A stretch of 24,000 nucleotides of DNA from an uncultured Aestuariivirga sp. (GCA_964537655.1 CAZICN010000008.1:5499-29498); one strand, 5' to 3'; shown: positions 1 to 18,248, numbered from the stretch's first letter. Notes: a model not told the origin generated them from the letters alone. Made by a program: numbers and translations.

Positions 1-540
1 CACGGCATTGTTGCTCTGCCCGTCGGCCGAGAGCATCTGCAATTCGCGGCCGAGAACGCCCTTTTCGCCCGAATCGATCAGGATGTCGTCATCCTCGTCA
101 TAGACGAGATCGGTGACCGACTTGTCGCCGCCCGCATCCACCACATCGAGCTTGGTGCCTTCCTTGCTGATGACCGGCGGCTTCTTGGCGACCTGCGCCT
201 CGGCGCCGAGGAAGCCGGCGCCGATATTGGGAGCGCCCTTGAGCGTCTTGCCCTCGTTGATCTCCTTCACCGCGAGCTGCGCGGCGTGCAGCTTCTGCAG
301 GCCATAGACGGCGAGATTGCCCGATTCATCCTCGATGAAGCCGAGCTTCACCGGATCGCCCGCCTGGGCGAAGGCGCTGCTCGCCGGGCCGAAGCCCTTG
401 AGATAGGCCGGGAGCGCCACGGCGGCGGTCACGCCGGCGGTGACGATGCCCTTGACGACGGTGCGCCGGTCGGTGGTGAGTTCGCTGCCGAGGGGCGCCG
501 CCTCGATGGCCTTGCCGTCATCCGGTTTGCGGTCGGTCAT
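1..540 (-). CDS. Amide/urea ABC transporter periplasmic substrate-binding protein (FmdD/UrtA-like, LIVBP fold). N-terminal 180 codons only; the 3' end lies beyond the window.
   Basis: My own translation from ATG (complement of 538-540): MTDRKPDDGKAIEAAPLGSELTTDRRTVVKGIVTAGVTAAVALPAYLKGFGPASSAFAQAGDPVKLGFIEDESGNLAVYGLQKLHAAQLAVKEINEG... It has a twin-arginine type signal (TDRRTVVKG plus a hydrophobic stretch) and an SD GGAAAGGGA upstream. The frame stays open to position 1, so it is absent from the ORF track for lack of a stop. It lies 23 nt downstream of amiR on the same strand. Confidence 0.7.
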   Translation of the reverse strand, partial: MTDRKPDDGKAIEAAPLGSELTTDRRTVVKGIVTAGVTAAVALPAYLKGFGPASSAFAQAGDPVKLGFIEDESGNLAVYGLQKLHAAQLAVKEINEGKTLKGAPNIGAGFLGAEAQVAKKPPVISKEGTKLDVVDAGGDKSVTDLVYDEDDDILIDSGEKGVLGRELQMLSADGQSNNAV

Positions 541-563
541 GTCAGTCCCTTTCCTGTTTCCCA

Positions 564-1175
564 TCATGCTGTCGTTTTCTTGTCTATGCTCGTGGTCTTG
601 CTGGTCAGGATCTGCGCCGAGAGCTCCTCGACCGAAATGCGCTTGCTCATGCTTTCCTTGCGCAGATAGCGATAGGCCTCCTCGTCATTGAAACCGAAGC
701 TCTGCATGAGCTGGATGATGGCCTTGACCACGATGCGCCGCGCACCCTGGCGCTCCTGGATGCTCGCCAGTTTTCCCTGCACCTGCTGGCGCCGCTGCTT
801 TTCGTTGAAGGCGAAGAACAGCGCCGTATAGACGCCATTCGACTTCACCGGCTTCATCAGCACCGCCGAAGGCTCGATGTCGAAGGCGCGCTGCAGGCGG
901 CTGGGCGATTCGATGCCGATCACCGCGACGACCGGCAGCAGCGAGCTGGCGACCGCCGGCACGAACTGTGCGTCCAGCATGTCGGCGTCGACGAAGACGA
1001 TATCGGCGGCGGCGATGGCGGTCTTGAGGTCGCCGGCGCTGCCCTGCGGGTCGAAATGATGCGGGCTGACGCCCAGGCGGCCGAGGATGTTGCGCAGCGC
1101 CTGCTGGTTGCGGTCCTCGGGCATGACCAGGAGGGCGGAACAGCCGCGGAAATTCTGCACCGGCCTGCTCGTCAT
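564..1175 (-). CDS. amiR: AmiR-type response-regulator-like ANTAR RNA-binding antiterminator
   Basis: Inner start MTSRPVQNF... of the 564..1355 ORF. Its ATG overlaps the amiC stop (ATGA at 1172-1175), suggesting translational coupling. The C-terminus (RRIVVKAIIQLMQSFGFNDEEAYRYLRKESMSKRISVEELSAQIL) looks like an ANTAR domain. Confidence 0.8.
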   Translation of the reverse strand: MTSRPVQNFRGCSALLVMPEDRNQQALRNILGRLGVSPHHFDPQGSAGDLKTAIAAADIVFVDADMLDAQFVPAVASSLLPVVAVIGIESPSRLQRAFDIEPSAVLMKPVKSNGVYTALFFAFNEKQRRQQVQGKLASIQERQGARRIVVKAIIQLMQSFGFNDEEAYRYLRKESMSKRISVEELSAQILTSKTTSIDKKTTA

Positions 1176-2338
1176 TTGACGACCCTCAGATTGCCGGGCC
1201 GCGCCGGCCGCTCGTGCCGGACATCGGCCCAGATCAGATAGGGGTCGGGTTTGATCGGCTGGCTCGCCTCGAAAATGATGTCGAAGCCGCCGGCCTTGTT
1301 GGAGATGCCGATGCGCGGCGTCAGGTAGCTGTGCCGGTTGTCGTTGTCGATGCACACCCGTCCCTGCGGCGCCTCGAATTCGATATGCGAGAGAACGGCG
1401 CGCACCGCCGGCATGTCGTCGCTGCCGGCCGCGTTCAGCGCCCGCGCCAGCAGATGGACGGCGTTGTAGGAGGCTTCGGCATCGGCGGAGGTGGCGCGCT
1501 GGCTGGGAAAGCGCCGGCGATAGGCGCGGGCAAAGGCGGCATTGACCGGCGTGCCGATGCTTTCGAAATAGACCGAGGACGAGATATGGCCGTCGCAGGC
1601 GGCGCTGCCGATCTCGGCGAGCTCGGGCTCGGAAAGGCTGCAGCTCGCCACCGGCATGGCGCGCGCCTGGTCGAGGCCGGCGCGCTCGCAGGCGCCGCGC
1701 AGCGCCCGGAAGAAGGCATAGGCCGAATCGCCGATCAGCGTGTTGAAGATGAAGTCCGGCCGGTAGTCGAGGATCTGCTTGACGATCGCGTCATGGTCGG
1801 TGTCGCCGACCGGCGCATAGCGCTCGGCCAGCACGCTGCCCTGGGCGGCGAGCACCGCCTCGCGCATGATCTTGTTGTTTTCCCACGCCCAGATGTAGTT
1901 GGAGCCGATGAAGTAGGCTTTGTTGCCGTAGCGCTTGAGCAGGAAGTCGGCCAGCGGCACGATATGCTGGTTCGGGCTGGCGCCGGTATAGACGACATTC
2001 TCGCTGCTCTCGAAGCCTTCATAATGCGAGGGATACCAGAGGAGCCCGTCATATTTCTCGAAATAGGGCAGCACTTCCTTGCGGCTCGACGATGTATAGC
2101 AGCCGACGACATGGACCAGCCGCTCGTCGATGAGCATCGACTTGACGTGCCGCGCATAGGAGCTGTTCAGCCCCTGGGGATCGGCCGTTACCGGTTCGAG
2201 GGTGAAGGGAAGGCTGGCGCTGCCATTGACCTCGTCTATGGCGAGGAGCGCGCCATTCAGCATCGCCTGGCCGATCGTGGCATAGGGCCCGGTGCTCGAG
2301 AACAGAAGTCCTAGCCGATGCCTGCCCTTCATGCGCAT
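1172..2338 (-). CDS. amiC: AmiC-like amide-sensing negative regulator (periplasmic-binding-protein fold, cytoplasmic)
   Basis: 388-aa ORF, LGLLFSSTGPYATIGQAMLNGALLAIDEVN..., LIVBP/AmiC-like with no signal peptide. It sits immediately upstream of, and is coupled to, the ANTAR gene, the classic AmiC-AmiR pairing. Confidence 0.8.
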   Translation of the reverse strand: MRMKGRHRLGLLFSSTGPYATIGQAMLNGALLAIDEVNGSASLPFTLEPVTADPQGLNSSYARHVKSMLIDERLVHVVGCYTSSSRKEVLPYFEKYDGLLWYPSHYEGFESSENVVYTGASPNQHIVPLADFLLKRYGNKAYFIGSNYIWAWENNKIMREAVLAAQGSVLAERYAPVGDTDHDAIVKQILDYRPDFIFNTLIGDSAYAFFRALRGACERAGLDQARAMPVASCSLSEPELAEIGSAACDGHISSSVYFESIGTPVNAAFARAYRRRFPSQRATSADAEASYNAVHLLARALNAAGSDDMPAVRAVLSHIEFEAPQGRVCIDNDNRHSYLTPRIGISNKAGGFDIIFEASQPIKPDPYLIWADVRHERPARPGNLRVVK

Positions 2339-2353
2339 GCCTTTCGGTTGCCC

Positions 2354-2390
2354 AAAAACAAAAAGCCCACGGGCCTTGGTCCCGGGGCTT
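2354..2390 (-). terminator. Rho-independent terminator read on the minus strand
   Basis: Minus-strand read: GAAGCCCCGGGaccaaggCCCGtGGGCTTTTTGTTTTTGG. Stems are 2363-2368:2385-2390 and 2370-2373:2381-2384, with one bulged nucleotide (2369) and a 7-nt loop. The stem is followed by T5-G-T5 (complement of 2354-2364). It lies downstream of the permease stop (2531) and about 15 nt upstream of the amiC ATG (2338). Confidence 0.75.
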
Positions 2391-2530
2391 CATCGCCGAT
2401 CACATCTGGTCTGGGGTATTCGATCAACACACATCTGCGGCATCGCCGCAGACCGAGCGTCCTTGCTCGGTGGAAAGTATTGCATCGGCGAAAAATCGCG
2501 TCAAGGGATTTGGCGCACCCGCCATTGCGA

Positions 2531-4483
2531 CTAGCCCATTCCCAGTTCGCTCTTGCGCCGCTTCGCCCAGGCGCCGATCAGCCGGTCGGCGATGATGCCG
2601 ATGAAGGCGATGCCGAGCCCGGCGAGGAGGCCGCGGCCGGTATCGGCGCCGGGCAGCGCCTTGTAGATTTCCTGGCCGAGATCGCGCGAACCGATCAGGG
2701 CCGTGATCGCCACCATCGCCAGCGCCATCATGATCGTCTGGTTGATGCCGAGCAGGATTTCCGGGAAGGCGATGGGAAGCTCCACCTTGCGCAACCGCTG
2801 CCAGCCGGTGGCGCCCGCCGCCGTCGCCGCCTCGATCGTGGCGGTGGGCACCCGCATCAGCCCCAGATAGGTGAAGCGGATCGCCGGCACCGTCGCATAG
2901 GCCAGCATGGCGATCACATTCGAGAGATCGCTGGTCTGGAACAGCATGATCACCGGAATGAGATAGATGAAGCTCGGAAAGGTCTGCAGCGTGTCGCAGA
3001 TGGTGTTGATGATGCGCGCCGCGAACGGCCGGCGCGCCGCCCAGATGCCGAGCGGGATGCCGATCAGCACGCACAGGAAAGTGGTGCTGGTGACGAGATA
3101 GAGAGTGAGCATCATGGGCGTCCAGAAGCCCGCGACCATCAGGAATCCGAACAGCGCGACCGGCAGCAATGCCAGGCGCCAGCCGCCGAAGTGATGGCCG
3201 GTCATCGCCAGGGTGCCGATGACCACGGGCCAGGGCAGCCAGAGATAGAAGTCGCGCAGCGGCAGGAGCATCCAGATGGTGATGCCGTCGCGCACCGGCT
3301 TCACATAGGGGAACAGGTTGCGCGACACCCAGCGCACCGCGTCGTTGATGGGCCCGCCATAGGACAGCGTCAGCTCGCGCGGCAGCACCGCCAGCGCCGG
3401 CACGATCTTGGCGAGCAGGATCGATGCGACGATGAGCAGGAGGAACGCGCTGAGATGTTTATGCCGCACATGCCAGGGCGCGCCGGCGGGCGGGCGCTCG
3501 GGCAGTCTGCGCATATAGGCCTGCGTCATGCGGTCGAGCACGATGGCGATGAGGGTGATCGCCACGCCCTGTTCCACCGCCTTGCCGATCTGCAGTTGCT
3601 GCAGCGAGAACAGCAGCTTCTGGCCGAGGCCCGAGGCGCCGACGAGGGAGGCGATCACCGCCATGGCGAGCGTCTGCATGACGACCTGGTTGAGGCCGAG
3701 CAGCAAAGTGCGCTCCGCCGCCGGCAGCTCGACCTTCCACAGGAGCTGCAATGGTGTGCAGCCTGACATCTGCCCGGCCTCGATGATGTCCTTGGGCACG
3801 GTGCGGATGCCGAGGATGGTGCAGCGCGCCATGGGCGGCAGCGCGAAGATCAGCGTGGCGAGCATCGCCGGCACCTGGCCGAAGCCGAACAGGATCACCA
3901 CTGGCCCCAGATAGGCCATATGCGGCGTCGCCTGCATCACGTCGAAGATCGTGTTGAGCACCCGCTCGGCGGCTGCACTGCGTGTCGCCCAGATGCCGAG
4001 CAGGAGGCCCGAGATCACGGCGAGCGGCACCGTGACGATGACGATGCCCAGCGTCTGCATCGCATCGGGCCACAGGCCGAAAATGGCGAGATAGAATGTG
4101 CCGAGGCCGGCGAGCAAGGCGATCGGCCGGCCGCCGATCCAGTGGCCGAGGATCGCCGCGGCGCCGACGACCGCGGGCCAGGGCAGCGGCGGCCATTTCC
4201 ACGCCGGGACGCCGCGGAACAGCAGCGCCTCGACCAGGTTGAGGGGCTGCGCCAGGCACCAGGAGATGAAGCGGGTGATAGGTTTGGCCGTTGCCGCGAA
4301 CCAGACGAAGAAGTCGGTGACCCAGCCGCGCACCGGCACGATGAGCGTATCCGGCCATTTGTCGAGGAAGGGAATGGCCTGTGCGATGACGGCGACGGCC
4401 ACGACGGCGGCGATCGTCAGGGGCAATTGAAGACGCGTGGCCTGGGCCGCCTTGCCTTCGGCGGTGGCGGCCAGAACGTTCAT
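2531..4483 (-). CDS. Betaine/choline-family ABC transporter permease, fused double (ProW-ProW-like) membrane protein
   Basis: 650-aa, highly hydrophobic ORF with two internally similar halves (e.g. ...IFDVMQATPHMAYLGPVVILFGFGQVPAMLAT... and ...ICDTLQTFPSFIYLIPVIMLFQTSDLSNVIAM...). Its start overlaps the ATPase stop (ATGA, 4480-4483). Confidence 0.85.
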   Translation of the reverse strand: MNVLAATAEGKAAQATRLQLPLTIAAVVAVAVIAQAIPFLDKWPDTLIVPVRGWVTDFFVWFAATAKPITRFISWCLAQPLNLVEALLFRGVPAWKWPPLPWPAVVGAAAILGHWIGGRPIALLAGLGTFYLAIFGLWPDAMQTLGIVIVTVPLAVISGLLLGIWATRSAAAERVLNTIFDVMQATPHMAYLGPVVILFGFGQVPAMLATLIFALPPMARCTILGIRTVPKDIIEAGQMSGCTPLQLLWKVELPAAERTLLLGLNQVVMQTLAMAVIASLVGASGLGQKLLFSLQQLQIGKAVEQGVAITLIAIVLDRMTQAYMRRLPERPPAGAPWHVRHKHLSAFLLLIVASILLAKIVPALAVLPRELTLSYGGPINDAVRWVSRNLFPYVKPVRDGITIWMLLPLRDFYLWLPWPVVIGTLAMTGHHFGGWRLALLPVALFGFLMVAGFWTPMMLTLYLVTSTTFLCVLIGIPLGIWAARRPFAARIINTICDTLQTFPSFIYLIPVIMLFQTSDLSNVIAMLAYATVPAIRFTYLGLMRVPTATIEAATAAGATGWQRLRKVELPIAFPEILLGINQTIMMALAMVAITALIGSRDLGQEIYKALPGADTGRGLLAGLGIAFIGIIADRLIGAWAKRRKSELGMG

Positions 4484-5582: not shown

Positions 5583-6536
5583 TTATTGCAGCCAGGCCTT
5601 CCAGACCGCCTCGTTCTCGGCGACCCACTTCTTGGCCGCGTCCTCGGGCGTCATGCCCTCGACATCGACCATGGCGGCGGCGGCCGCGATCTGCGGATTG
5701 GTGAAATTGACCTTCTTCAGGATCGCGGTCGCCTTCGGCCATTTTTCGGCGAGCTGCTTCGAGCCGGCCTTCTTGAGATAACCCTTGGCCGGGGCGCCGC
5801 AATCATAGACGGCGTCGGGATTCATGCCCCATTTGGGATCCGACAGGCAGGCCGGCTCATAGGTCGGGAACTCGACGAACTGGCCATCGAACTTCGCCTC
5901 GATGAAGTTCGGCGTCCAGTTGAACAGCACGATCGGTTCCTTGCGGTCATAGGCGGCCTGCAGTTCCGCCCACAAGGTCGCCGCCTGGCCGACCGGCACT
6001 TCCTGGAAGTTCATCTTCAGCGCCTGGATGCGCTCGGAATAGTGTTTGCCCCAGTCGGCCGGCGGTCCGACGAACCGGCCCTTGCTGCCGGTCTCGGCGG
6101 TGGCGAGCTTGCCGGCGCAGGCATCGAGCGCCTTCCAGTCGGGCAGGCCCGGGCACATCTCGTTCATGTATTTCGGATACCACCAGTCCTCGCGCGTCAC
6201 CGCTTCATGGGCGCCGAGGTCGATGGCGCCGCCGGCGATCGCCTTCTCGAAGGATTCGGCCTGCGAGCCTTCCCAGACCTCGACCTGGAAATCCATGTCG
6301 CCGGCCGCCAGCGCCGTATATTGCAGCTGCGTGTCGGAGGATTTGTATTCGACATTATTGCCCTGCGCCTGCAGGATCTGGCCGACGACATTGGAGAGCA
6401 CGAGCTGGCTCGTCCAGTTGTTGGTCACGATCTTGATCGGATCGGCGGAATCTTCCGCCCATGCCGCGGCGCTGACGCTCATCAGCATCGCGGCGCCCGT
6501 CAGACTGGTCCTTGCAATTGTCCTGATCGATTTCAT
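5583..6536 (-). CDS. Betaine/choline-family (ProX-like) periplasmic substrate-binding protein; candidate TMAO/methylamine binder
   Basis: MKSIRTIARTSLTGAAMLMSVSAAAWA signal peptide. SD GGAGAGGA lies 5-12 nt upstream of the ATG at 6536, which I prefer over the track start at 6551. ProX-like, Trp-rich sequence (NNWTSQ, VWEGS, EDWWYP, FNWTPNF). First gene of the ABC operon. Confidence 0.85.
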   Translation of the reverse strand: MKSIRTIARTSLTGAAMLMSVSAAAWAEDSADPIKIVTNNWTSQLVLSNVVGQILQAQGNNVEYKSSDTQLQYTALAAGDMDFQVEVWEGSQAESFEKAIAGGAIDLGAHEAVTREDWWYPKYMNEMCPGLPDWKALDACAGKLATAETGSKGRFVGPPADWGKHYSERIQALKMNFQEVPVGQAATLWAELQAAYDRKEPIVLFNWTPNFIEAKFDGQFVEFPTYEPACLSDPKWGMNPDAVYDCGAPAKGYLKKAGSKQLAEKWPKATAILKKVNFTNPQIAAAAAMVDVEGMTPEDAAKKWVAENEAVWKAWLQ

Positions 6537-11523: not shown

Positions 11524-13125
11524 TCAGGCCCCGGCCCGCACCGACGCCCAGTCGAGATCGAAACGGGCGAGGTATTTGCGCAGGCGGTCGGCGTCGTTGC
11601 CGCTCGTCTTCTCCTGGCGCGATGCGGCGAACAGCCGTCGGCCGGCGGCGCTGAGCGATGCGCTCTCGCGGCAGATGGCGATCACCGTGGCGAGCTGGGC
11701 CTGGTCGAAGAGATCGATCCGCGCGATGCGCTCCGGCGGAAAAACCTCGCGCAGCAGCTCACCCGGTTCGCCGCGGCGTCCGTCCGACCACAGGCTCTTG
11801 AGCCGCGCGATTTCTTCCTCGACGGTCGTCTCGTCGATGCGGCCCTTGGGCGCCAGCGTCACCATGCGGGTGATCGAGGCGGAAAGGTCGCGGAAATTGG
11901 CACGCCACTCCGCTTCGGCCGAGGTCGCGAAGGCGGTGAAGCGGGACCGCGCTTCCTTGTTGAAGGTGATCTTGGCGCCGTCGTCCTGGGCATGGCGCTC
12001 GAGCTCGAAGTCGATATTGGGCTCGATATCTTCCGATCTGTCCTTGAGGGCGGGCAGCGCGAAGGTCCACAGGTTGAGGCGCGCCAGCAGATCGTCGCGG
12101 AACCGCCCTGACCGCACCGCGTCATGGAGATCGCGGTTGGTGCCGGCGACGAGCTGGAAGTCGCTTGCCGTCTCCTTGTCGGCGCCGACCGCGAGGAAGC
12201 GTTTCTCCTCGATGGCGCGCAGGATCATCGCCTGTTCGTCGGGCCCGAGCTCGCCGATCTCGTCGAGAAACAAGAGGCCGCCATCGGCGGATTTGAGCAG
12301 GCCCGGCCGCGCCGACTGGGCGCCGGTAAAGGCGCCCTTCACATGGCCGAACAGCGAGGACATGGCGGTATCGCCGCGCAAGGTGGCGCAGTTCACGTCG
12401 ACGAATGGTCCTTCGATCTGGTGGCGCGACTTCTTGAGTTCATAGATGCGCCGCGCCAGCTGCGATTTGCCGGCGCCTGTCGGGCCGGTCAGCAGGAAGG
12501 GCGCCTTGGAATTGATGGCCACCTGCTCGATGCGGTCGATCATGCGGTTGAAGGCGGCGCTCCGCGTCGCGATGCCGGATTTGAGGAAGGACGCGGCGTC
12601 GTGCTGCTCGGCCCGGAAGCGCGTGGCGATCCGGTCATAGCGCGACAGGTCGAGATCGATGATCCGCATCGGGCTCGTGAGATCGCCGCGCGCTTTCCGG
12701 GGCGGCGAGAGTTGCAGGAGCCTCGCCGGGATATGGCGCGTCTCGGCGAGCAGGAACCAGCAGATCTGCTCCACATGTGTCCCGGTGGTGATGTTGATGA
12801 AATAGTCTTCCTTCTCCGTATCGAAGCTGCGGCCGCGGGCGAAATCATGCAGCGCGCCATAGACTTCCTCGAAATCCCAGGGGTCCTTGAGGTTGATGAC
12901 GACCGGCGCCACCTGGGTCTCGGGCGAGACCTGGTTGATGTCCTGGGTCAGCCGCTGGAAGAGACCGGCCGAGTGATTGTCATGGATGAGTTCGAGCCGG
13001 TGGACGATAAAATCCTCCTGCTGGCACACGGCGACCGTCGGCCGCCAGCGCTCCCACCGGTTCTCGTGTTTGGCGATATCGAGTTTGGTGCCGATGAAGC
13101 CGATGACGACATTGGTCCTGCTCAT
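11524..13125 (-). CDS. rtcR: RtcR, sigma54-dependent enhancer-binding activator with N-terminal CARF-like sensor domain
   Basis: Near full-length collinearity with E. coli RtcR as recalled (WRPT..CQQE....RLEL.HD, NPWDFEEVY..LHDFARG, INITTGTHV.QICWFLLAE, IIDLDLSRY, GPTGAGKS, GAFTGA, ESFCS-less AAA+ core, C-terminal DADRLRKYLARF). ATG at 13125, with a TTG one codon upstream. The stop abuts the torT stop. Confidence 0.95.
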   Translation of the reverse strand: MSRTNVVIGFIGTKLDIAKHENRWERWRPTVAVCQQEDFIVHRLELIHDNHSAGLFQRLTQDINQVSPETQVAPVVINLKDPWDFEEVYGALHDFARGRSFDTEKEDYFINITTGTHVEQICWFLLAETRHIPARLLQLSPPRKARGDLTSPMRIIDLDLSRYDRIATRFRAEQHDAASFLKSGIATRSAAFNRMIDRIEQVAINSKAPFLLTGPTGAGKSQLARRIYELKKSRHQIEGPFVDVNCATLRGDTAMSSLFGHVKGAFTGAQSARPGLLKSADGGLLFLDEIGELGPDEQAMILRAIEEKRFLAVGADKETASDFQLVAGTNRDLHDAVRSGRFRDDLLARLNLWTFALPALKDRSEDIEPNIDFELERHAQDDGAKITFNKEARSRFTAFATSAEAEWRANFRDLSASITRMVTLAPKGRIDETTVEEEIARLKSLWSDGRRGEPGELLREVFPPERIARIDLFDQAQLATVIAICRESASLSAAGRRLFAASRQEKTSGNDADRLRKYLARFDLDWASVRAGA

Positions 13126-13266
13126 CAAGGACTTATATCAAAAGATAAAAGACAATCCAATAGTATCTATTCTAGCGGAAGAATGGAGGAAGGGCGGGCG
13201 AAGAAAGAAAAATATAAAATAGTAATATCAATTAGATATACGAATTCTGGCGGATCCTCCCACGTC

Positions 13267-13282
13267 TGGCACGCAGGCTGCA
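13267..13282 (+). promoter_or_regulatory. Sigma54 (-24/-12) promoter of the rsr operon
   Basis: TGGCACGcaggCTGCA matches TGGCACG-N4-TTGCW at 15 of 16 positions with correct GG/GC spacing. It lies 33 nt upstream of the rsr ATG, with SD AAGGGAAAG between them, and is divergent from rtcR. Confidence 0.85.
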
Positions 13283-13314
13283 ATGGTGTGCGCGTACACA
13301 AAGGGAAAGAAGCC

Positions 13315-14874
13315 ATGGCAAACAAATCCGTGTTTGCATCGACGATCGGAAGGCTGCTTCCGCGTGCGAATGCCTGGAATCACGAGAAGGCTCCGGCCTA
13401 TGGCCTTGTGCCGCGCGCTGCGCTGGCGCAACTGGCCGCGACCGGGACCTTCAACCGGACCTTCTATGCGGAGCCGCGGGAGCAGCTCGATCAGGTGCTG
13501 AAGCTGGCATGGAAGGTGGATTCCGCCTTCATCGCCAGGACGGCGATCTATGCGCGCGAGAAGGGGCACATGAAGGACATGCCGGCGGCTTTGCTGGCGG
13601 TCCTCGCCACGCTCGATACGGGTGATTTCGCCAAGGCGTTTCCGCGGGTGATCACGAACGGGCGCATGCTGCGCAATTTCGTGCAGGTCATCCGATCGGG
13701 TGCGGTTGGCCGCAAGTCCCTGGGCTCGCGCCCGAAGCGCATGATCCTGGGCTGGCTGGCTTCGGCGTCGGATGAGGACATTCTGCGCGCGAGCATCGGC
13801 AACGATCCCTCGCTCGCCGATATCATCCGCATGGTGCATCCCAAGCCCGAGACGAAGACGCGCGAAGCGCTTTATGGCTATGTGATCGGCCGTCCCTATG
13901 ACGCTGACGCGTTGCCGCAGATCGTGAAGGATCTCGAAGCCTTCAAGCGCGACCCGTCTTTGCCGGTTCCGGCGGTGCCGTTCCAGTTGCTGACCGCGCT
14001 GCCGCTGACGCAGAAGCAGTGGGCTTCGGTGGCCGAGACGGCGTCCTGGCAGACCTTGCGCCAGGGGCTCAACACCTTCGCGCGTCACGGCGTGTTCGGC
14101 ATTGCCGGCATGTCGGAGCGCGTGGCCGAGCGCCTCGCCGACGCGAAGGCGATCGCCCGCGCCAAGGTTTTTCCCTATCAGCTGATGGCGGCCTATGCCG
14201 CCTCGGCCGGGGAAGTGCCGAAGCCGGTGCGCAACGCCTTGCAGGATGCGATGGAAATCGCCATTGGCAATGTGCCGGAGCTCGATCAGCGGATCGTCGT
14301 CTGCCCGGATGTTTCGGGTTCGATGTCGTCCCCGGTGACGGGTCACCGCAAGGGTGCGTCGAGCGCGGTGCGCTGCATCGATGTCGCGGCTTTGGTGGCC
14401 GCGTCCTTCCTGCGCCGCAACGCGAAGGTCGAGGTGCTGCCTTTCGAGCAGGATGTGGTCGATATCGACCTCAACCCGCGAGATACGGTGCTGACCAACG
14501 CGGCCAAGCTCGCCAGGATCGGCGGTGGCGGAACCAACTGCTCGGCGCCGCTGGCGCGACTGGCGCGTGAGAAGGCGAAGGTCGACCTCGTCATCTTCGT
14601 TTCCGATAACGAATCCTGGGTGGATGCATCCAAGGGTGGCGCGACCGGAACGACGACGATGAAGGCCTGGGAGAGGGTGAAGCGGGTAAATCCTGAAGCC
14701 AAGCTCGTTTGCATCGACATCCAGCCCTACATAACGACGCAGGCGGTCGAGCGCGAGGACATCCTGAATGTCGGAGGTTTCTCCGATACGGTGTTCGAGA
14801 TGATCGCCGCCTTCGCCGAGAACCGGCTGGGGGCGGATCACTGGATCGGCGAGATCGAGAAGATCGCGCTGTAA
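13315..14874 (+). CDS. rsr: Ro60 ortholog Rsr (TROVE domain plus vWA/MIDAS domain)
   Basis: 519 aa starting MANKSVFASTIGRLLP... TROVE-like N-terminal two thirds (TFYAEPREQLDQVL...ARTAIYAREKGHMKDMPA) and a C-terminal vWA with MIDAS DVSGSM. The 916-aa track ORF 12124..14874 is this gene plus an antisense-to-rtcR read-through. Confidence 0.9.
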   Translation: MANKSVFASTIGRLLPRANAWNHEKAPAYGLVPRAALAQLAATGTFNRTFYAEPREQLDQVLKLAWKVDSAFIARTAIYAREKGHMKDMPAALLAVLATLDTGDFAKAFPRVITNGRMLRNFVQVIRSGAVGRKSLGSRPKRMILGWLASASDEDILRASIGNDPSLADIIRMVHPKPETKTREALYGYVIGRPYDADALPQIVKDLEAFKRDPSLPVPAVPFQLLTALPLTQKQWASVAETASWQTLRQGLNTFARHGVFGIAGMSERVAERLADAKAIARAKVFPYQLMAAYAASAGEVPKPVRNALQDAMEIAIGNVPELDQRIVVCPDVSGSMSSPVTGHRKGASSAVRCIDVAALVAASFLRRNAKVEVLPFEQDVVDIDLNPRDTVLTNAAKLARIGGGGTNCSAPLARLAREKAKVDLVIFVSDNESWVDASKGGATGTTTMKAWERVKRVNPEAKLVCIDIQPYITTQAVEREDILNVGGFSDTVFEMIAAFAENRLGADHWIGEIEKIAL

Positions 14875-14881
14875 CGATAAG

Positions 14882-14908
14882 GGACCACGGGGCGGCGTCT
14901 CGTGGTCC
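14882..14908 (+). other. Stem-loop immediately after the rsr stop
   Basis: GGACCACG (14882-14889) pairs with CGTGGTCC (14901-14908), with an 11-nt loop. Its function is unknown; it could be a processing or stability element, or the 5' boundary of the ncRNA array. Confidence 0.4.
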
Positions 14909-14917
14909 AGCGAAATG

Positions 14918-14985
14918 GGTGAATGCGGACAGGAATACAGTGGAACCGAGGGTTCAAATCCCCATTCTTGTCCTCCTTTGTCACC
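14918..14985 (+). ncRNA. Y-RNA-like module A (minimal: two stacked stems plus a T-loop-like hairpin)
   Basis: Outer stem GGTGA (14918-14922):TCACC (14981-14985). A 10-bp stem GGACAGGAAT (14927-14936):ATTCTTGTCC (14964-14973) with one G.T pair. Internal GGGTTCAAATCCC. It shares the GAATGC, AATACAG, T-loop and TTCTTGTC blocks with modules B and C in the same order. Confidence 0.45.
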
Positions 14986-14986
14986 A

Positions 14987-15123
14987 CCGCGGGGCGAATG
15001 CCTGCGGGACTACAGGGTAGAGCGCCTGCCGGTATGGCAGGAGGTCGGGGGTTCGTATCCTCCCGCCGGTGAAAGCCGGGCGTAGCTCAGGAAACGTCTC
15101 GCAACCATCTTGTCGCCTGGCGG
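14987..15123 (+). ncRNA. Y-RNA-like module B with tRNA-like domain (anticodon-like arm, T arm, loop-closed acceptor, split D stem)
   Basis: Terminal stem 14987-14997:15113-15123 (11 positions, one G.G mismatch, one G.T pair). Second stem 15003-15008:15098-15103. GGTAGAGCG-CCTGC-CGGTATG-GCAGG-AGGTC-GGGGG-TTCGTAT-CCTCC has exact tRNA spacing. Closed hairpin CGCCGG-tgaaag-CCGGGCG, then TAGCTCAGG. Confidence 0.6.
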
Positions 15124-15139
15124 ATTGATTGGAAGGAAC

Positions 15140-15279
15140 AGGCCCTTACGAATGCCGATGGAACTACAGATCGTTAATCTCCGTGTCGCGGGTTCGAATC
15201 CCGCCAGGTCCCCCAATATGGACCTGTAGCTCAGGTGGATAGAGCAGGCTGTTTCATCACCTTCTTGTCGTAAGGACCT
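15140..15279 (+). ncRNA. YrlA-like Y RNA (module C): Ro-type stem plus circularly permuted tRNA-like domain
   Basis: Terminal stem AGGCCCTTACGA (15140-15151):TCGTAAGGACCT (15268-15279) with one C.A mismatch. Second stem 15157-15162:15253-15258 plus 15166-15169:15249-15252. Canonical T arm GCGGG-TTCGAAT-CCCGC (15188-15204). Acceptor CAGGTCC (15205-15211) / GGACCTG (15220-15226) closed by CCCAATAT. TA, then D arm GCTC-AGGTGGATA-GAGC (15229-15245). It lies directly downstream of rsr, as the Y RNAs do in Salmonella. Confidence 0.7.
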
Positions 15280-15298
15280 TCATTGGTAAGTAAAGAAA

Positions 15299-15844
15299 AT
15301 GGAAAAGAACATCACTCGGCTCAGCAAGTTTCTGAGCTACATTCTGCGCCACGCACCGGATGAGATCGGTCTCGTATTGAGCGAGGGCGGCTGGGTCTCG
15401 GCCAGCGAGCTCATCGCCAAAGCGGGCGCGCATGGATATCAGCTCACGCCGGAAATCCTCCGCGAAATCGTGGCGAGCAATGACAAAAAGCGCTTCACCT
15501 TGTCGCCGGATGGGGCGCGGATCAGGGCGGCGCAAGGTCATTCAGTGGCCGTCAGTCTCGATCTGGCACCGGTCACGCCACCGAGCCAGCTTTATCATGG
15601 CACGGCGGCGAAGGTGCTGGACAAGATCCTGGCGGAAGGCCTCACGCCGCAAACACGCCAGCATGTCCACCTCTCGCTCGATAGGGAGACGGCGCGCAAG
15701 GTGGGCATGCGGCACGGCAAGCCGGTCATTCTCCTCGTCGCGGCGGATCGGATGCATCATGATGGCCTGCATTTCTACAAGGCCGACAATGGCGTCTGGC
15801 TGACCAGCCATGTGGCGCCGCATTATTTGACTGTGAAGGATTGA
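15299..15844 (+). CDS. kptA: RNA 2'-phosphotransferase (Tpt1/KptA family, NAD-dependent)
   Basis: 181 aa. SKFLSYILRHAPDEIGLVLSEGGW...DKKRF...IRAAQGHS...LYHGT...HVHLS...A.KVG.RHG.PVIL...NGVWLT are collinear with E. coli KptA as recalled, including the R-H-R-R catalytic-type motifs (LRH, RAxQGHS, HVHLS). Confidence 0.9.
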   Translation: MEKNITRLSKFLSYILRHAPDEIGLVLSEGGWVSASELIAKAGAHGYQLTPEILREIVASNDKKRFTLSPDGARIRAAQGHSVAVSLDLAPVTPPSQLYHGTAAKVLDKILAEGLTPQTRQHVHLSLDRETARKVGMRHGKPVILLVAADRMHHDGLHFYKADNGVWLTSHVAPHYLTVKD

Positions 15845-15849
15845 AGACC

Positions 15850-17085
<1,236 letters not shown>

Positions 17086-17228: not shown

Positions 17229-18248
17229 ATGTTGACCATCGATGGCAGTCAGGGCGAGGGCGGCGGGCAGATCCTGCGCTCGGCTCTGACGCTTTCCTTG
17301 CTGACGGGCGAACCGTTCCGGATCGAGAACATCCGGGCCGGCCGCGCCAAGCCGGGCCTGCTGCGCCAGCATCTGGCGGCAGTGAAGGCGGCCGTGCAGA
17401 TTTCCGGCGGCAAGGCCCAGGGTGTCGAGCTCGGCTCGACCGCGATTACCTTCGAGCCGGGCGAGGTGCGGGCGGGCGACTATGCCTTTGCCATTGGCTC
17501 GGCGGGAGCCGCTTCGCTCGTCTTTCAGACTGTGTTCCTGCCGCTGGCGCGGCAGACGGCGGCCTCGCGTGTCACCATCGAAGGCGGCACGCACAATTTC
17601 GCAGCACCGCCCTTCGAGTTTCTCGACCGCGCCTTTCTTCCCGCGGTGGGCCGGATGGGCTTCGATGCGAAGCTCACTTTGCATCGGCATGGCTTCTATC
17701 CGGCGGGCGGCGGCAAGCTCGAGGCCGGGATCGGCCCGGTGCGCGCCGCGCCTGCGCGTTTTGCGCTCGAGGATCGCGGTGCGCTGCTGTCACGCACCGG
17801 CGAGGCGATGTTCGCCAATCTGGCCTTCGATATCGCCCAGCGCGAAGCCGGCAAGCTTCGGGAGCTTCTCCGGCTCGCCGACGGCGATGTGAAGATCAGG
17901 GAGGTCAAGGCCTCGGGGCCGGGCAATCTGCTGTGGATCGAGATCCGCCATGAACATGTCACCGATGTCTTCACCGCGCATGGCGAGCTCGGCGTCTCGG
18001 CCGAGCAGGTCGCGGGCAAGGTGGCGAAGCAGGTCGAGAAATATATCGAGAGCGAGGTCGCCATTGGCGCGCATCTCGCCGATCAGCTCTTGCTGCCCCT
18101 GGCGCTGGCGGGCGGTGGCCGCTTCACCACCACGAGGCCGACGCCGCATACCCACAGCAATATTGCGGTCATCGAGAAGTTCCTGCCCGTCGAGATCACG
18201 ATCGCCGAGACCGGACGCGGCGGGCGTCTGATCGAGGTGTCGCTGTAG
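17229..18248 (+). CDS. rtcA: RNA 3'-terminal phosphate cyclase RtcA
   Basis: LTIDGSQGEGGGQILRSALTLSLLTGEPFRIENIRAGRAKPGLLRQHL, AIGSAG, RHGFYPAGGG, ADQLLLPLALAG, TNIAVIEKFLPV are collinear with E. coli RtcA as recalled. Confidence 0.95.
   Translation: MLTIDGSQGEGGGQILRSALTLSLLTGEPFRIENIRAGRAKPGLLRQHLAAVKAAVQISGGKAQGVELGSTAITFEPGEVRAGDYAFAIGSAGAASLVFQTVFLPLARQTAASRVTIEGGTHNFAAPPFEFLDRAFLPAVGRMGFDAKLTLHRHGFYPAGGGKLEAGIGPVRAAPARFALEDRGALLSRTGEAMFANLAFDIAQREAGKLRELLRLADGDVKIREVKASGPGNLLWIEIRHEHVTDVFTAHGELGVSAEQVAGKVAKQVEKYIESEVAIGAHLADQLLLPLALAGGGRFTTTRPTPHTHSNIAVIEKFLPVEITIAETGRGGRLIEVSL

What the first reader, a model, noticed from the sequence alone, without database searches (positions are those of the whole stretch)
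15140..15279. Module C is a circularly permuted tRNA that retains a CCA-like triplet in the acceptor-closing loop
Reading 5' to 3', the elements appear in permuted tRNA order.
- A perfect T arm GCGGG-TTCGAAT-CCCGC.
- A 7-nt acceptor 3' strand CAGGTCC, then C-CCA (15212-15215), which is a discriminator-plus-CCA look-alike.
- AUAU, then the complementary acceptor 5' strand GGACCTG.
- UA (the position 8-9 equivalents).
- A textbook D arm GCUC-AGGUGGAUA-GAGC.
- The strand that pairs back to sequence upstream of the T arm, in place of an anticodon arm.
So the RNA ends sit where the anticodon stem would be, and the aminoacyl end is sealed into a loop. Established knowledge: enterobacterial YrlA contains a tRNA-like domain with the Ro-binding stem replacing the anticodon arm. 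The retained CCA-like triplet inside the closing loop and the near-consensus D and T loops suggest recent derivation from a real tRNA gene. They also raise the question of whether tRNA enzymes (RNase P, TruB, Dus, CCA-adding enzyme, RtcB) act on it.
Basis: partly seen in the sequence, partly recalled or inferred. Interest (0 to 1): 0.75.

Follow-up and report, generated by a model that had tools for sequence, protein, structure and literature searches.

The report
YrlA Y RNA with encoded CCA
This is a bacterial Y RNA of the already described YrlA type, a small RNA that binds the Ro protein and imitates a tRNA in rearranged order; its built-in CCA is conserved in many relatives, which suggests it is cut open like a tRNA precursor rather than being a recent relic.

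Summary
The T arm is at 15188-15204. A 7-bp acceptor hairpin (15205-15211 / 15220-15226) has the loop C-CCA-AUAU. U8/A9 and the D arm (15229-15245) follow. Two helices pair the 5' and 3' flanks.

The element is not new in kind. It matches Rfam YrlA (RF02553) end to end at 66 bits (E 1e-14, 3 bits under the curated cut-off). It lies 267 nt downstream of rsr (Ro60), in an operon rtcR | sigma-54 promoter | rsr - three Y-RNA modules - kptA - rtcB - rtcA. YrlA RNAs have been described in print as resembling circularly permuted tRNAs (Chen 2014; Wang 2018).

My addition is comparative. Of 53 YrlA-type RNAs near Rsr relatives with a 7-bp acceptor stem and a loop of at least 7 nt, 26 have N-CCA directly after the seventh pair. 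These include a Rhizobium etli copy. Spacer length (3-62 nt), spacer sequence and stem sequence all vary.

So the CCA is kept by selection, not by recency. By analogy with Mycobacterium smegmatis YrlA, RNase P probably opens the loop. That would give a two-piece Y RNA with a free CCA end; this step is inferred, not shown.

Verdict: new member of a known family, moderate interest.

The parts
11524..13128 (-). rtcR, sigma-54 activator with an RtcR (CARF-like) N-terminal domain, divergent from the operon
   Evidence: Pfam RtcR 1.5e-80 and Sigma54_activat 1.7e-49
13267..13282 (+). Sigma-54 promoter-like element TGGCAC-N5-CTGCA upstream of rsr
   Evidence: Read from the sequence. Matches the -24/-12 consensus from general knowledge. 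No sigma-70-like promoter or terminator between 13100 and 15400.
13315..14874 (+). rsr, Ro60 ortholog (519 aa)
   Evidence: Pfam vWA_Ro60 9e-19 plus a weak TROVE hit. 238 relatives confirmed in genomes, 80 fetched.
14882..14908 (+). 12-bp G+C-rich hairpin directly after the rsr stop codon, with no U tract
   Evidence: Fold -21.5 kcal/mol, z -4.6. Conserved in L001-L003 with compensatory changes.
14918..14985 (+). Module A: minimal Y-RNA-like stem (GGTGAATGC ... CTTTGTCACC) carrying only a T-arm-like hairpin
   Evidence: Sequence and fold. Its L003 counterpart scores 51 bits with model R1. The window copy did not reach E 0.01.
14988..15122 (+). Module B: second Y RNA. Ro-type stem plus a tRNA-like domain permuted in the D loop (anticodon-like arm present, acceptor closed by UGAAA).
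   Evidence: Rfam YrlA 23.7 bits, E 0.018. R1 38.8 bits. ARAGORN calls a 4-arm tRNA after rotation at the D loop.
15142..15277 (+). Module C: YrlA-type Y RNA (the finding)
   Evidence: Rfam RF02553 66.0 bits, E 1e-14, positions 1-114 of 114. R1 126.6 bits (this sequence was in the model's seed).
15144..15164 (+). 5' strand of the Ro60-binding stem (CCTTACGA, AATGC internal loop, GATGGAAC). Contains UACGAAUG in place of the GNCGAAN0-1G motif.
   Evidence: Pairs with 15251-15258 and 15268-15275. Helices 1 and 2 are 97.5% and 96.3% paired with 8 compensatory pairs across 30 homologs.
15169..15179 (+). Small 'V' hairpin (GAT-CGTTA-ATC) in the strand leading to the variable loop
   Evidence: Partly present in the fold. 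Length is variable in the alignment. Corresponds to the V region of Chen 2014.
15183..15187 (+). Variable-loop equivalent GUGUC (positions 44-48; C48 can pair with G15)
   Evidence: Alignment column pattern NGGU[CU]
15188..15204 (+). T arm GCGGG-UUCGAAU-CCCGC
   Evidence: 100% paired in homologs with 3 compensatory pairs.
15205..15211 (+). Acceptor 3' strand CAGGUCC (positions 66-72)
   Evidence: 7/7 pairs with 15220-15226. All 7 pairs covary among homologs.
15212..15215 (+). Discriminator C73 plus genomically encoded CCA
   Evidence: N-CCA at this exact offset in 26 of 53 open-loop homologs, and 0-2 at any other single loop offset
15216..15219 (+). Spacer AUAU. Predicted RNase P cleavage between U15219 and G15220.
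   Evidence: U at -1 in 21/26 N-CCA homologs. U at -3 in 42/53. Cleavage itself is inferred from M. smegmatis YrlA (PMC4201824).
15220..15228 (+). Acceptor 5' strand GGACCUG (1-7) plus U8 A9
15229..15245 (+). D arm GCUC-AGGUGGAUA-GAGC
15246..15277 (+). 3' strand: A26, GG pairing with CC 15181-15182, GUUUCAUC, then CUUGUCGUAAGG closing the Ro60-binding stem
15299..15844 (+). kptA/Tpt1 RNA 2'-phosphotransferase, starting 22 nt after the Y RNA
   Evidence: Pfam PTS_2-RNA 2.6e-50. At this position only in the window and L001-L003.
15841..17085 (+). rtcB RNA ligase
   Evidence: Pfam RtcB 9.9e-131
17229..18248 (+). rtcA RNA 3'-phosphate cyclase
   Evidence: Pfam RTC 3.1e-72

Best explanation
Module C is a YrlA-class bacterial Y RNA.

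1. Transcription. It is transcribed as part of the RtcR/sigma-54-controlled operon rsr - Y RNAs - kptA - rtcB - rtcA and cut out of that transcript.

2. Structure. Its 5' and 3' ends pair into the stem that Rsr (Ro60) binds. The rest folds into a tRNA-shaped L whose parts come in the order variable loop, T arm, acceptor hairpin, D arm. The Y stem therefore occupies the place of the anticodon arm. This tRNA mimic is the effector-binding module of the Ro60 ribonucleoprotein.

3. Subclass. This copy belongs to a subclass that keeps a tRNA-exact acceptor end: 7 bp stacked on the 5-bp T stem, G1:C72, a discriminator, an encoded CCA, then a spacer ending in U.

4. Processing (inferred). Most likely RNase P cuts between U15219 and G15220 and exonucleases trim AUAU back to CCA. 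The product would be a two-piece Y RNA held together by the acceptor and Y stems, with a free CCA 3' end that protects it from exonucleases.

What is shown and where:
- Shown here: the sequence and covariation anatomy, the operon context, and conservation of N-CCA.
- Shown in homologs by others: Rsr binding, TruB and DusA modification, the L-shaped crystal structure, and RNase P cleavage plus CCA in M. smegmatis.
- Inferred for this RNA: all of the biochemistry.

Sub-confidences: YrlA identity 0.95; loop opened in vivo about 0.5.
For: - Rfam YrlA hit over the full model length, 66 bits, E 1e-14.
- Location 267 nt downstream of rsr on the same strand, in an rtcR/rsr/rtcB/rtcA locus.
- No promoter or terminator inside the Y-RNA region, and a sigma-54 -24/-12 element upstream of rsr.
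- 30-sequence alignment: 97.7% of cells paired, 22 of 34 pairs with compensatory change, and every slid control at or below 47% paired.
- Model R1 finds 279 Y-RNA-like matches, nearly all on the rsr strand just downstream of it. 100 of the best 150 have complete T and D arms.
- ARAGORN recognises a tRNA only after un-permuting.
- N-CCA directly after the 7th acceptor pair in 26 of 53 open-loop homologs. That is 9 of 25 clusters at 80% identity (binomial 3e-9 on clusters). CCA occurs 0-2 times at any other single loop offset.
- The window, L001, L002 and L003 differ in discriminator (C, A, A, G), in spacer (AUAU, UCUAU, CUAU) and by compensatory stem changes, yet all keep CCA.
- CCA is kept even where 40-60 nt are inserted after it (L007, L008, L071, L074).
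- U at -1 in 21/26 N-CCA copies against 4/21 other open loops. G1:C72 in 25/26.
- Sealed relatives instead carry GNRA or UUCG-type loops.
- All 7 tRNA genes found in the alphaproteobacterial loci encode CCA.
- Literature: M. smegmatis YrlA, the one with a 7-bp acceptor stem, is cleaved by RNase P in vitro and is found in vivo as 82-nt and 65-nt halves bound to Rsr, the 5' half ending in CCA. Salmonella YrlA (6 bp) is not cleaved (PMC4201824; 10.1101/312249).
Against: - The Rfam score is 3 bits below the curated cut-off.
- The first G of the GNCGAAN0-1G Ro-binding motif is U here, compensated by an A on the partner strand.
- Only 4 nt separate A76 from G+1. That is a tight loop for RNase P, which must hold both the CCA and the leader. 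Cleavage of so short a loop has not been shown.
- About half of the open-loop homologs lack an intact CCA (ACCG, ACCU, AACA, AGCA ...), so CCA is not obligatory.
- My homolog set was drawn from the 80 closest Rsr relatives. The seed alignment was partly pre-selected by a pattern that demanded paired T stems. The counts are not phylogenetically corrected.
- No expression or end-mapping data exist for this organism.
Confidence: 0.8

Rival explanations
1. It is a YrlA Y RNA whose acceptor loop stays closed in the mature RNA. The CCA is either an inherited leftover of the dimeric-tRNA ancestor or a loop motif read by some partner, and is not a processing signal.
For: - Salmonella YrlA is closed, and its crystal structure has a closed acceptor loop (10.1101/312249).
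- The published view is that most YrlAs are closed.
- The spacer after CCA is only 4 nt here, and 3-5 nt in L013, L039, L003 and L001, which may be too short for RNase P.
- Half of the open-loop homologs have a degraded CCA.
Against: - A leftover would not stay fixed at one offset in 9 of 25 sequence clusters while the neighbouring loop positions, loop length (7-66 nt) and stem sequence all change.
- Copies that are clearly built to stay closed use stable tetraloops and lose G1:C72.
- The N-CCA copies keep exactly the features RNase P reads: 7+5 bp stack, G+1, U-1, RCCA.
- The only tested 7-bp YrlA is cleaved (PMC4201824).
Confidence: 0.4
2. One reading: the element was derived recently from a genuine tRNA gene, which is why the D and T loops and the CCA are still near consensus.
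For: - The near-perfect tRNA consensus nucleotides.
- The YrlA core aligns by blastn to junctions between adjacent tRNA genes in phage tRNA arrays, in line with the published dimeric-tRNA origin model.
Against: - The same permuted module, with the same consensus loops, lies next to Rsr proteins 57-66% identical to this one in several phylum-level groups.
- All seven acceptor pairs covary.
- The family was already found in more than 250 species (PMC4201824).
- Conservation through divergence indicates selection, not youth.
Confidence: 0.04
3. It is a true circularly permuted tRNA gene (as in Cyanidioschyzon merolae) that matures into a working tRNA through a circular intermediate.
For: The gene order is the same. 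ARAGORN accepts the rotated sequence as an intron-containing tRNA.
Against: - There is no anticodon loop. The place of the anticodon arm is a 16-bp interrupted stem with the conserved Ro60-binding sequence.
- No bulge-helix-bulge motif is present.
- Bacteria are not known to have the splicing endonuclease (10.1101/312249).
- The element is linked to rsr, not to translation genes.
Confidence: 0.01
4. It is a permuted (two-piece) tmRNA gene, or the decayed junction of two tandem tRNA genes.
For: - Weak Rfam hits to tmRNA_permuted (21.7 bits) and to the tmRNA T arm (17.7 bits).
- The order T arm, acceptor 3' strand, NCCA, spacer, acceptor 5' strand is shared with permuted ssrA genes and with tRNA-gene junctions.
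Against: - Both hits are far below the gathering score of 47 and cover only the T arm and acceptor.
- There are no pseudoknots and no tag reading frame.
- A canonical D arm is present.
- ARAGORN finds neither tRNA nor tmRNA in the window.
- The flanks form a covarying Ro-type stem rather than anticodon arms.
Confidence: 0.01

Closest known systems
YrlA (Rfam RF02553); Salmonella Typhimurium YrlA, tRNA-like domain solved by crystallography (Chen et al. 2014; Wang et al. 2018)
   Same: - Encoded just downstream of rsr in an RtcR-controlled rsr-Y RNA-rtcBA operon.
- Ro60-binding stem made by the two ends, containing CGAAUG ... CUUGUCG.
- The same module order: V region, T arm, acceptor stem-loop, D arm.
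- All tertiary-contact nucleotides are present.
   Different: - Acceptor stem of 7 bp here, against 6 in Salmonella and in the Rfam consensus.
- 8-nt loop C-CCA-AUAU here, against a 3-nt closed loop.
- This costs score and leaves the RNA at 66 bits against a cut-off of 69.
- The first G of the GNCGAA motif is U (compensated).
- kptA is inserted between the RNA and rtcB.
Mycobacterium smegmatis YrlA (Chen et al. 2014)
   Same: 7-bp acceptor stem. On present evidence the same fate is predicted: RNase P cleavage at the 5' side of the acceptor 5' strand, and two halves that stay with Rsr, the 5' half ending in CCA.
   Different: - In M. smegmatis the CA is added after transcription; here CCA is fully encoded.
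- The M. smegmatis RNA lies upstream of rsr and is not under RtcR.
- Cleavage is demonstrated there and only inferred here.
Two-piece tmRNA from circularly permuted ssrA genes (Rfam RF04321)
   Same: Gene order T arm, acceptor 3' strand, N-CCA, intervening segment, acceptor 5' strand. Maturation by removal of the intervening segment gives two base-paired pieces with a free CCA end.
   Different: No tag reading frame and no pseudoknots. It has a true D arm. It binds Ro60, not SmpB. The Rfam score is 21.7 against 47.
Circularly permuted tRNA genes of Cyanidioschyzon merolae, and junctions of tandem tRNA genes (dimeric-tRNA origin model, Sim and Wolin 2018 as cited in 10.1101/312249)
   Same: The 3' half of a tRNA precedes the 5' half, and the acceptor end starts out closed. 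The YrlA core aligns to tRNA|tRNA junctions in phage genomes.
   Different: No anticodon loop and no splicing motif. The two acceptor strands are complementary to each other. The outer strands form a protein-binding stem.

Membership tests
YrlA bacterial Y RNA (Rfam RF02553; Chen et al. 2014) | Encoded within 4 kb of a Ro60/TROVE ortholog, on the same strand | tested here: met
   rsr 13315-14874 (+); RNA 15142-15277 (+)
YrlA bacterial Y RNA (Rfam RF02553; Chen et al. 2014) | Score at or above the Rfam gathering threshold (69 bits) | tested here: not met
   66.0 bits, E 1e-14, full-length match. The shortfall comes from the 9-nt insertion in the acceptor loop. Orthologs L003, L013 and L074 score 69-70 bits, and other N-CCA copies also fall below the cut-off.
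YrlA bacterial Y RNA (Rfam RF02553; Chen et al. 2014) | Stem formed by the 5' and 3' ends with the GNCGAAN0-1G motif on the 5' strand | tested here: inconclusive
   The stem is present and covaries. The motif reads UACGAAUG: CGAAUG is intact, and the first G is replaced by U paired to A, as in L001 and L002.
YrlA bacterial Y RNA (Rfam RF02553; Chen et al. 2014) | T arm, acceptor-like stem-loop and D arm in that order, with tRNA tertiary-contact nucleotides | tested here: met
YrlA bacterial Y RNA (Rfam RF02553; Chen et al. 2014) | Bound by Rsr; modified by TruB and DusA | not testable with these tools
   Needs immunoprecipitation and modification mapping
RNase P-opened YrlA (M. smegmatis type) | Seven-base-pair acceptor stem stacked on the T stem | tested here: met
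   CAGGUCC/GGACCUG, 7 Watson-Crick pairs directly after the T stem
RNase P-opened YrlA (M. smegmatis type) | Cleavage 5' of the acceptor 5' strand, and a 5' half ending in CCA in vivo | not testable with these tools
   Only sequence correlates are available: encoded C-CCA, U at -1, G at +1
Canonical tRNA gene | Cloverleaf in standard order with an anticodon arm | tested here: not met
   ARAGORN finds 0 genes in the window and none in the native segment. No Rfam tRNA hit.
Circularly permuted tRNA gene (C. merolae type) | Anticodon loop and a processing motif at the joined ends that yield a functional tRNA | tested here: not met
   The stem replacing the anticodon arm has no 7-nt anticodon loop and carries the Ro60-binding sequence
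Permuted two-piece tmRNA (RF04321) | Gathering score of 47 bits; tag reading frame and pseudoknots | tested here: not met
   21.7 bits covering model positions 36-95 only. ARAGORN finds no tmRNA.

The most novel reading that the evidence does not exclude
The N-CCA subclass of YrlA, including this RNA, matures into a two-piece Y RNA with an authentic tRNA 3' end that tRNA enzymes can use.

In many relatives the acceptor helix also carries the alanine identity set known from tRNA-Ala and tmRNA:
- G3:U70 occurs in 18 of 47 open-loop copies against 1 of 22 sealed ones.
- G.U occurs at only 11 of 282 other acceptor positions.
- A73 occurs in 30 of 47.
- The set is complete in Taklimakanibacter lacteus, the closest named relative.

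Ro60 would then carry an alanine-accepting tRNA mimic in those species. The window's own copy has lost that set (A3:U70, C73), so it would be uncharged or read by another enzyme.
Probability: 0.12. Interest if true: 0.8.

Novelty: new member of a known kind. Interest (0 to 1): 0.42.

Why it matters
For annotation: this RNA and most of its N-CCA relatives fall just under Rfam's YrlA cut-off. Pipelines therefore leave the 420-nt gap between rsr and kptA empty, although it holds three Y RNAs.

For biology: the published view is that M. smegmatis is an exception and that most YrlAs are closed loops that RNase P handles poorly. In the relatives sampled here, about half of the open-loop copies keep an exact tRNA acceptor end. 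That turns a side remark of 2014, that a Y RNA might carry CCA and even be aminoacylated, into a question that can be tested in culturable Alphaproteobacteria such as Rhizobium etli, R. leguminosarum and Taklimakanibacter lacteus.

It also bears on what the tRNA-like module of the Ro60 particle does inside an RNA-repair operon that is itself switched on by damaged tRNAs.

Tried and rejected
- ARAGORN on the window: no tRNA or tmRNA.
- Rfam at gathering thresholds: nothing in 24 kb. The match only appeared in the permissive search.
- tmRNA_permuted and tmRNA hits were followed and rejected: T arm and acceptor only, far below threshold.
- Sigma-70 promoter and intrinsic terminator scans of 13100-15400 found none. 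I therefore dropped the idea of an independent transcription unit.
- blastn of the RNA against phage genomes gave only junctions of adjacent tRNA genes, not Y RNAs.
- tblastn of Rsr found 373 phage records. The YrlA of mycobacteriophage ET08 (L084:1658-1803) has a 6-bp stem and an 18-nt loop without N-CCA. Myxococcus phage Mx1 gave no convincing YrlA. Phages therefore added nothing to the CCA question.
- The supplementary alignments of Chen 2014, which would show the M. smegmatis loop, are not held.
- I considered that CCA might pair with UGG in the D loop. I rejected this because most N-CCA relatives lack UGG there and G18/G19 are needed for the T-loop contact.
- I looked for a link between kptA and the N-CCA type. 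kptA occurs only in the window and L001-L003, so there is no general link.

Full report
**1. What is in the sequence**

- T arm GCGGG-TTCGAAT-CCCGC, 15188-15204.
- CAGGTCC, 15205-15211.
- C 15212, CCA 15213-15215, ATAT 15216-15219.
- GGACCTG, 15220-15226.
- TA 15227-15228.
- D arm GCTC-AGGTGGATA-GAGC, 15229-15245.

The flanks pair with each other:
- 15144-15151 with 15268-15275.
- 15157-15164 with 15251-15258.
- CC 15181-15182 with GG 15247-15248.

The minimum-free-energy fold reproduces all of these helices. The core alone folds as three hairpins with 73% ensemble frequency.

Numbered as a tRNA, the RNA has U8, A14, G15 with C48, G18, G19, A21, G46, U54, U55, C56, A58 and G53:C61. These are the nucleotides that make the tRNA elbow.

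ARAGORN finds no tRNA in the window or in the native segment. It calls a tRNA once the two halves are placed in tRNA order with a synthetic anticodon arm. It also calls an intron-containing tRNA when the natural sequence is simply rotated. The permutation is therefore real.

**2. What it is**

Rfam at curated thresholds reports nothing in the window. The permissive search shows why. Module C matches YrlA (RF02553) over all 114 model positions at 66.0 bits, E 1e-14, which is 3 bits under the gathering score of 69. The loss comes from a 9-nt insertion where the model expects a 3-nt acceptor loop.

The neighbours settle the identity:
- rtcR (11524-13128, minus strand).
- A TGGCAC-N5-CTGCA sigma-54 element (13267-13282).
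- rsr, the Ro60 ortholog (13315-14874).
- The RNA region.
- kptA/Tpt1 (15299-15844), rtcB (15841-17085) and rtcA (17229-18248).

No sigma-70-like promoter or terminator lies between rsr and kptA. The RNAs must therefore be cut out of the operon transcript, as in the Salmonella rsr-yrlBA-rtcBA operon.

YrlA RNAs were described in 2014 in more than 250 species, including Rhizobium etli (PMC4201824).

**3. Homologs**

A scan of one genome per species with the Rsr protein returned 80 loci.
- The closest are Taklimakanibacter lacteus (93% identity), two uncultured Hyphomicrobiales-type genomes (87% and 81%), and then a long tail at 57-66%.
- The tail comes from Alphaproteobacteria and from assemblies labelled Acidobacteriota, Planctomycetota, Verrucomicrobiota, Deltaproteobacteria and Heliomicrobium.

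A 30-sequence alignment with my hand-drawn structure gave the following:
- 97.7% of cells paired.
- 22 of 34 pairs with changes on both sides.
- No more than 47% pairing when partners are slid by one to three columns.
- All seven acceptor pairs covary.

One caveat applies. The pattern I used to collect sequences demanded a paired T stem and a D-arm consensus. Those helices are therefore partly pre-selected. The two Ro-stem helices were not, and they are 96-97% paired with eight compensatory pairs.

A covariance model built from this alignment found 279 matches in the 81 sources. Nearly all lie on the rsr strand just downstream of rsr. Tandem arrays of several Y-RNA modules are therefore the rule. 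In the window, module C scores 126.6 bits (it was in the seed) and module B scores 38.8.

**4. The CCA**

Within one window, N-CCA at the start of an 8-nt loop is a 1-in-64 event and proves nothing. The comparison does carry weight.
- Among the best 150 model matches, 100 have complete T and D arms.
- Of these, 69 have at least seven acceptor pairs in tRNA register.
- Of these, 53 have a loop of 7 nt or more.
- In 26 of the 53, the loop starts with N-CCA.
- CCA occurs 0-2 times at any other single offset in the same loops.
- The next most common triplet at that position is ACA (4 cases).
- With loop composition giving p = 0.023, the raw binomial is 1e-28.
- After single-linkage clustering at 80% identity, 9 of 25 clusters contain N-CCA (3e-9).

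Within the window's own clade the discriminator differs (C; A in L001 and L002; G in L003). So does the spacer (AUAU, UCUAU, CUAU). The stem shows compensatory changes (G3... to A..., U-A to U-G). CCA is constant throughout.

CCA also persists where 40-60 nt with their own hairpin are inserted after it (L007, L008, L071, L074). It is present in R. etli CIAT 652 and R. leguminosarum plasmids as well (UCCA).

The N-CCA copies also keep G1:C72 (25/26) and U at -1 (21/26, against 4/21 in other open loops). Copies that are plainly sealed use GNRA- or UUCG-type loops and lose these features.

All seven genuine tRNA genes found in the alphaproteobacterial loci encode their CCA.

**5. How it most likely works**

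Shown by others for homologs:
- Rsr binds the stem formed by the RNA ends.
- The domain crystallises as a tRNA-like L.
- M. smegmatis YrlA, singled out as the one with a 7-bp acceptor stem, is cut by RNase P RNA in vitro.
- In vivo that RNA exists as 82-nt and 65-nt halves that co-precipitate with Rsr, the 5' half carrying CCA.
- Salmonella (6 bp) and Deinococcus RNAs are not cut (PMC4201824).

Inferred here: module C has the full set of RNase P determinants. These are a 12-bp acceptor/T stack, an intact elbow, G+1, U-1 and an encoded CCA. I therefore expect cleavage between U15219 and G15220, followed by trimming of AUAU. The result would be a two-piece Y RNA whose CCA end resists exonucleases.

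I put this at about even odds. The main objection is steric: only four nucleotides join A76 to G+1. No RNA with so short a loop has been tested.

The role of the tRNA-like module remains unsettled in the literature. Proposals include a tether to PNPase, a decoy for an anticodon nuclease, and a cofactor for RtcB (10.1101/312249; PMC7790460).

**6. What is not supported**

The inference of recent derivation from a tRNA gene is contradicted by the breadth and covariation just described.

The resemblance to tRNA-gene junctions is real. The YrlA core aligns to tRNA|tRNA junctions in phage arrays. This fits the published model of an old origin from a dimeric tRNA transcript.

The element is not a tmRNA. 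The hits are 21.7 and 17.7 bits against a threshold of 47, and they cover only the T arm and acceptor. It is also not a permuted tRNA gene of the algal kind, because it has no anticodon loop.

**7. A further observation with some novelty**

In the open-loop classes, the 3:70 pair is a G.U wobble in 18 of 47 RNAs.
- In sealed RNAs it is G.U in 1 of 22 (Fisher 0.003).
- At the other six acceptor positions G.U occurs 11 times in 282 (Fisher 3e-10).
- A73 accompanies it in most cases.

G3:U70 with A73 is the identity set for alanyl-tRNA synthetase in tRNA-Ala and tmRNA (general knowledge). T. lacteus YrlA has the complete set plus CCA: GGGCUUG / CAAGUCC-A-CCA.

The window's RNA does not. It has A3:U70 and C73. 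I found no mention of this in the two YrlA papers.

The point is suggestive but not phylogenetically corrected. I report it as the novel case, not as the explanation.

**8. Verdict**

It is wrong about its age, and probably incomplete about the sealed end.

This is a new, sub-threshold member of a known family. It belongs to a subclass (7 bp + N-CCA) that has one experimental precedent and appears more common than the literature implies.

Noticed in passing
window 14988-15122: Module B is a second Y RNA whose tRNA-like part is permuted at a different point, inside the D loop. Reading 5' to 3' it has the D-loop 3' half and GAGC (15014-15023), an anticodon-like arm CCUGC-CGGUAUG-GCAGG, variable loop AGGUC, a T arm, an acceptor hairpin closed by UGAAA, then UAGCUCAGG (15083-15091). 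Joining 15091 to 15014 gives a sequence that ARAGORN calls as a four-arm tRNA. I did not see this D-loop permutation described in the papers I read.
   Followed up: partly
L001 5701-5779, L015 6053-6129, L024 6143-6226, L032 5355-5438, L035 6771-6854, L076 5902-5993: The same rotation test finds D-loop-permuted tRNA-like modules next to rsr in other genomes. The anticodon-like arm shows compensatory changes among the window and L001-L003.
   Followed up: partly
window 14918-14985: Module A is a minimal Y-RNA-like hairpin (GGUGAAUGC ... CUUUGUCACC) carrying only a T-arm-like loop GGGG-UUCAAAU-CCCC. It is conserved in L001-L003 but falls below E 0.01 with my model in the window.
   Followed up: partly
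window 15299-15844: A kptA/Tpt1 RNA 2'-phosphotransferase gene sits between the Y RNAs and rtcB and overlaps the rtcB start by 4 nt. Among the 80 related loci it is at this position only in L001-L003. It is a clade-specific addition to the RNA-repair operon.
   Followed up: partly
L016, L018, L020, L029, L034, L037, L044, L046, L067 (bases 1-4000): In assemblies labelled Acidobacteriota, rsr is preceded by dense arrays of about 10-31 tRNA genes within 4 kb, covering most amino acids. About two thirds of all tRNA genes found across the fetched loci (160 of 227) encode CCA.
   Followed up: no
all loci, 0-1.5 kb downstream of rsr: Y-RNA-like modules come in tandem arrays, up to about eight per locus: 279 model matches in 81 sources. 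The Rfam tRNA model sometimes bridges two neighbouring modules (L012 5027-5176, L041 6223-6341).
   Followed up: no
acceptor loops of 53 open-loop YrlA homologs; window 15217-15219: The three nucleotides before the acceptor 5' strand follow a U-R-Y pattern: U at -3 in 42 of 53, A or G at -2 in 37, U or C at -1 in 48. I have no explanation for the conserved U at -3.
   Followed up: no
L081 3501-3637 and 3648-3763 (R. etli CIAT 652 plasmid pA): R. etli carries both kinds side by side: an N-CCA YrlA (UCCA, below Rfam's cut-off) followed by a sealed YrlA (Rfam 92 bits). Neither is annotated in the record.
   Followed up: yes
window 14882-14908: A 12-bp G+C-rich hairpin without a U tract lies directly after the rsr stop codon (z -4.6). 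It is conserved with compensatory changes in L001-L003. It may be a processing or stabilising element.
   Followed up: no
L074 5874-5950: In Mameliella alba a genuine tRNA-Pro gene follows the N-CCA YrlA (5675-5866) by only 8 nt.
   Followed up: no
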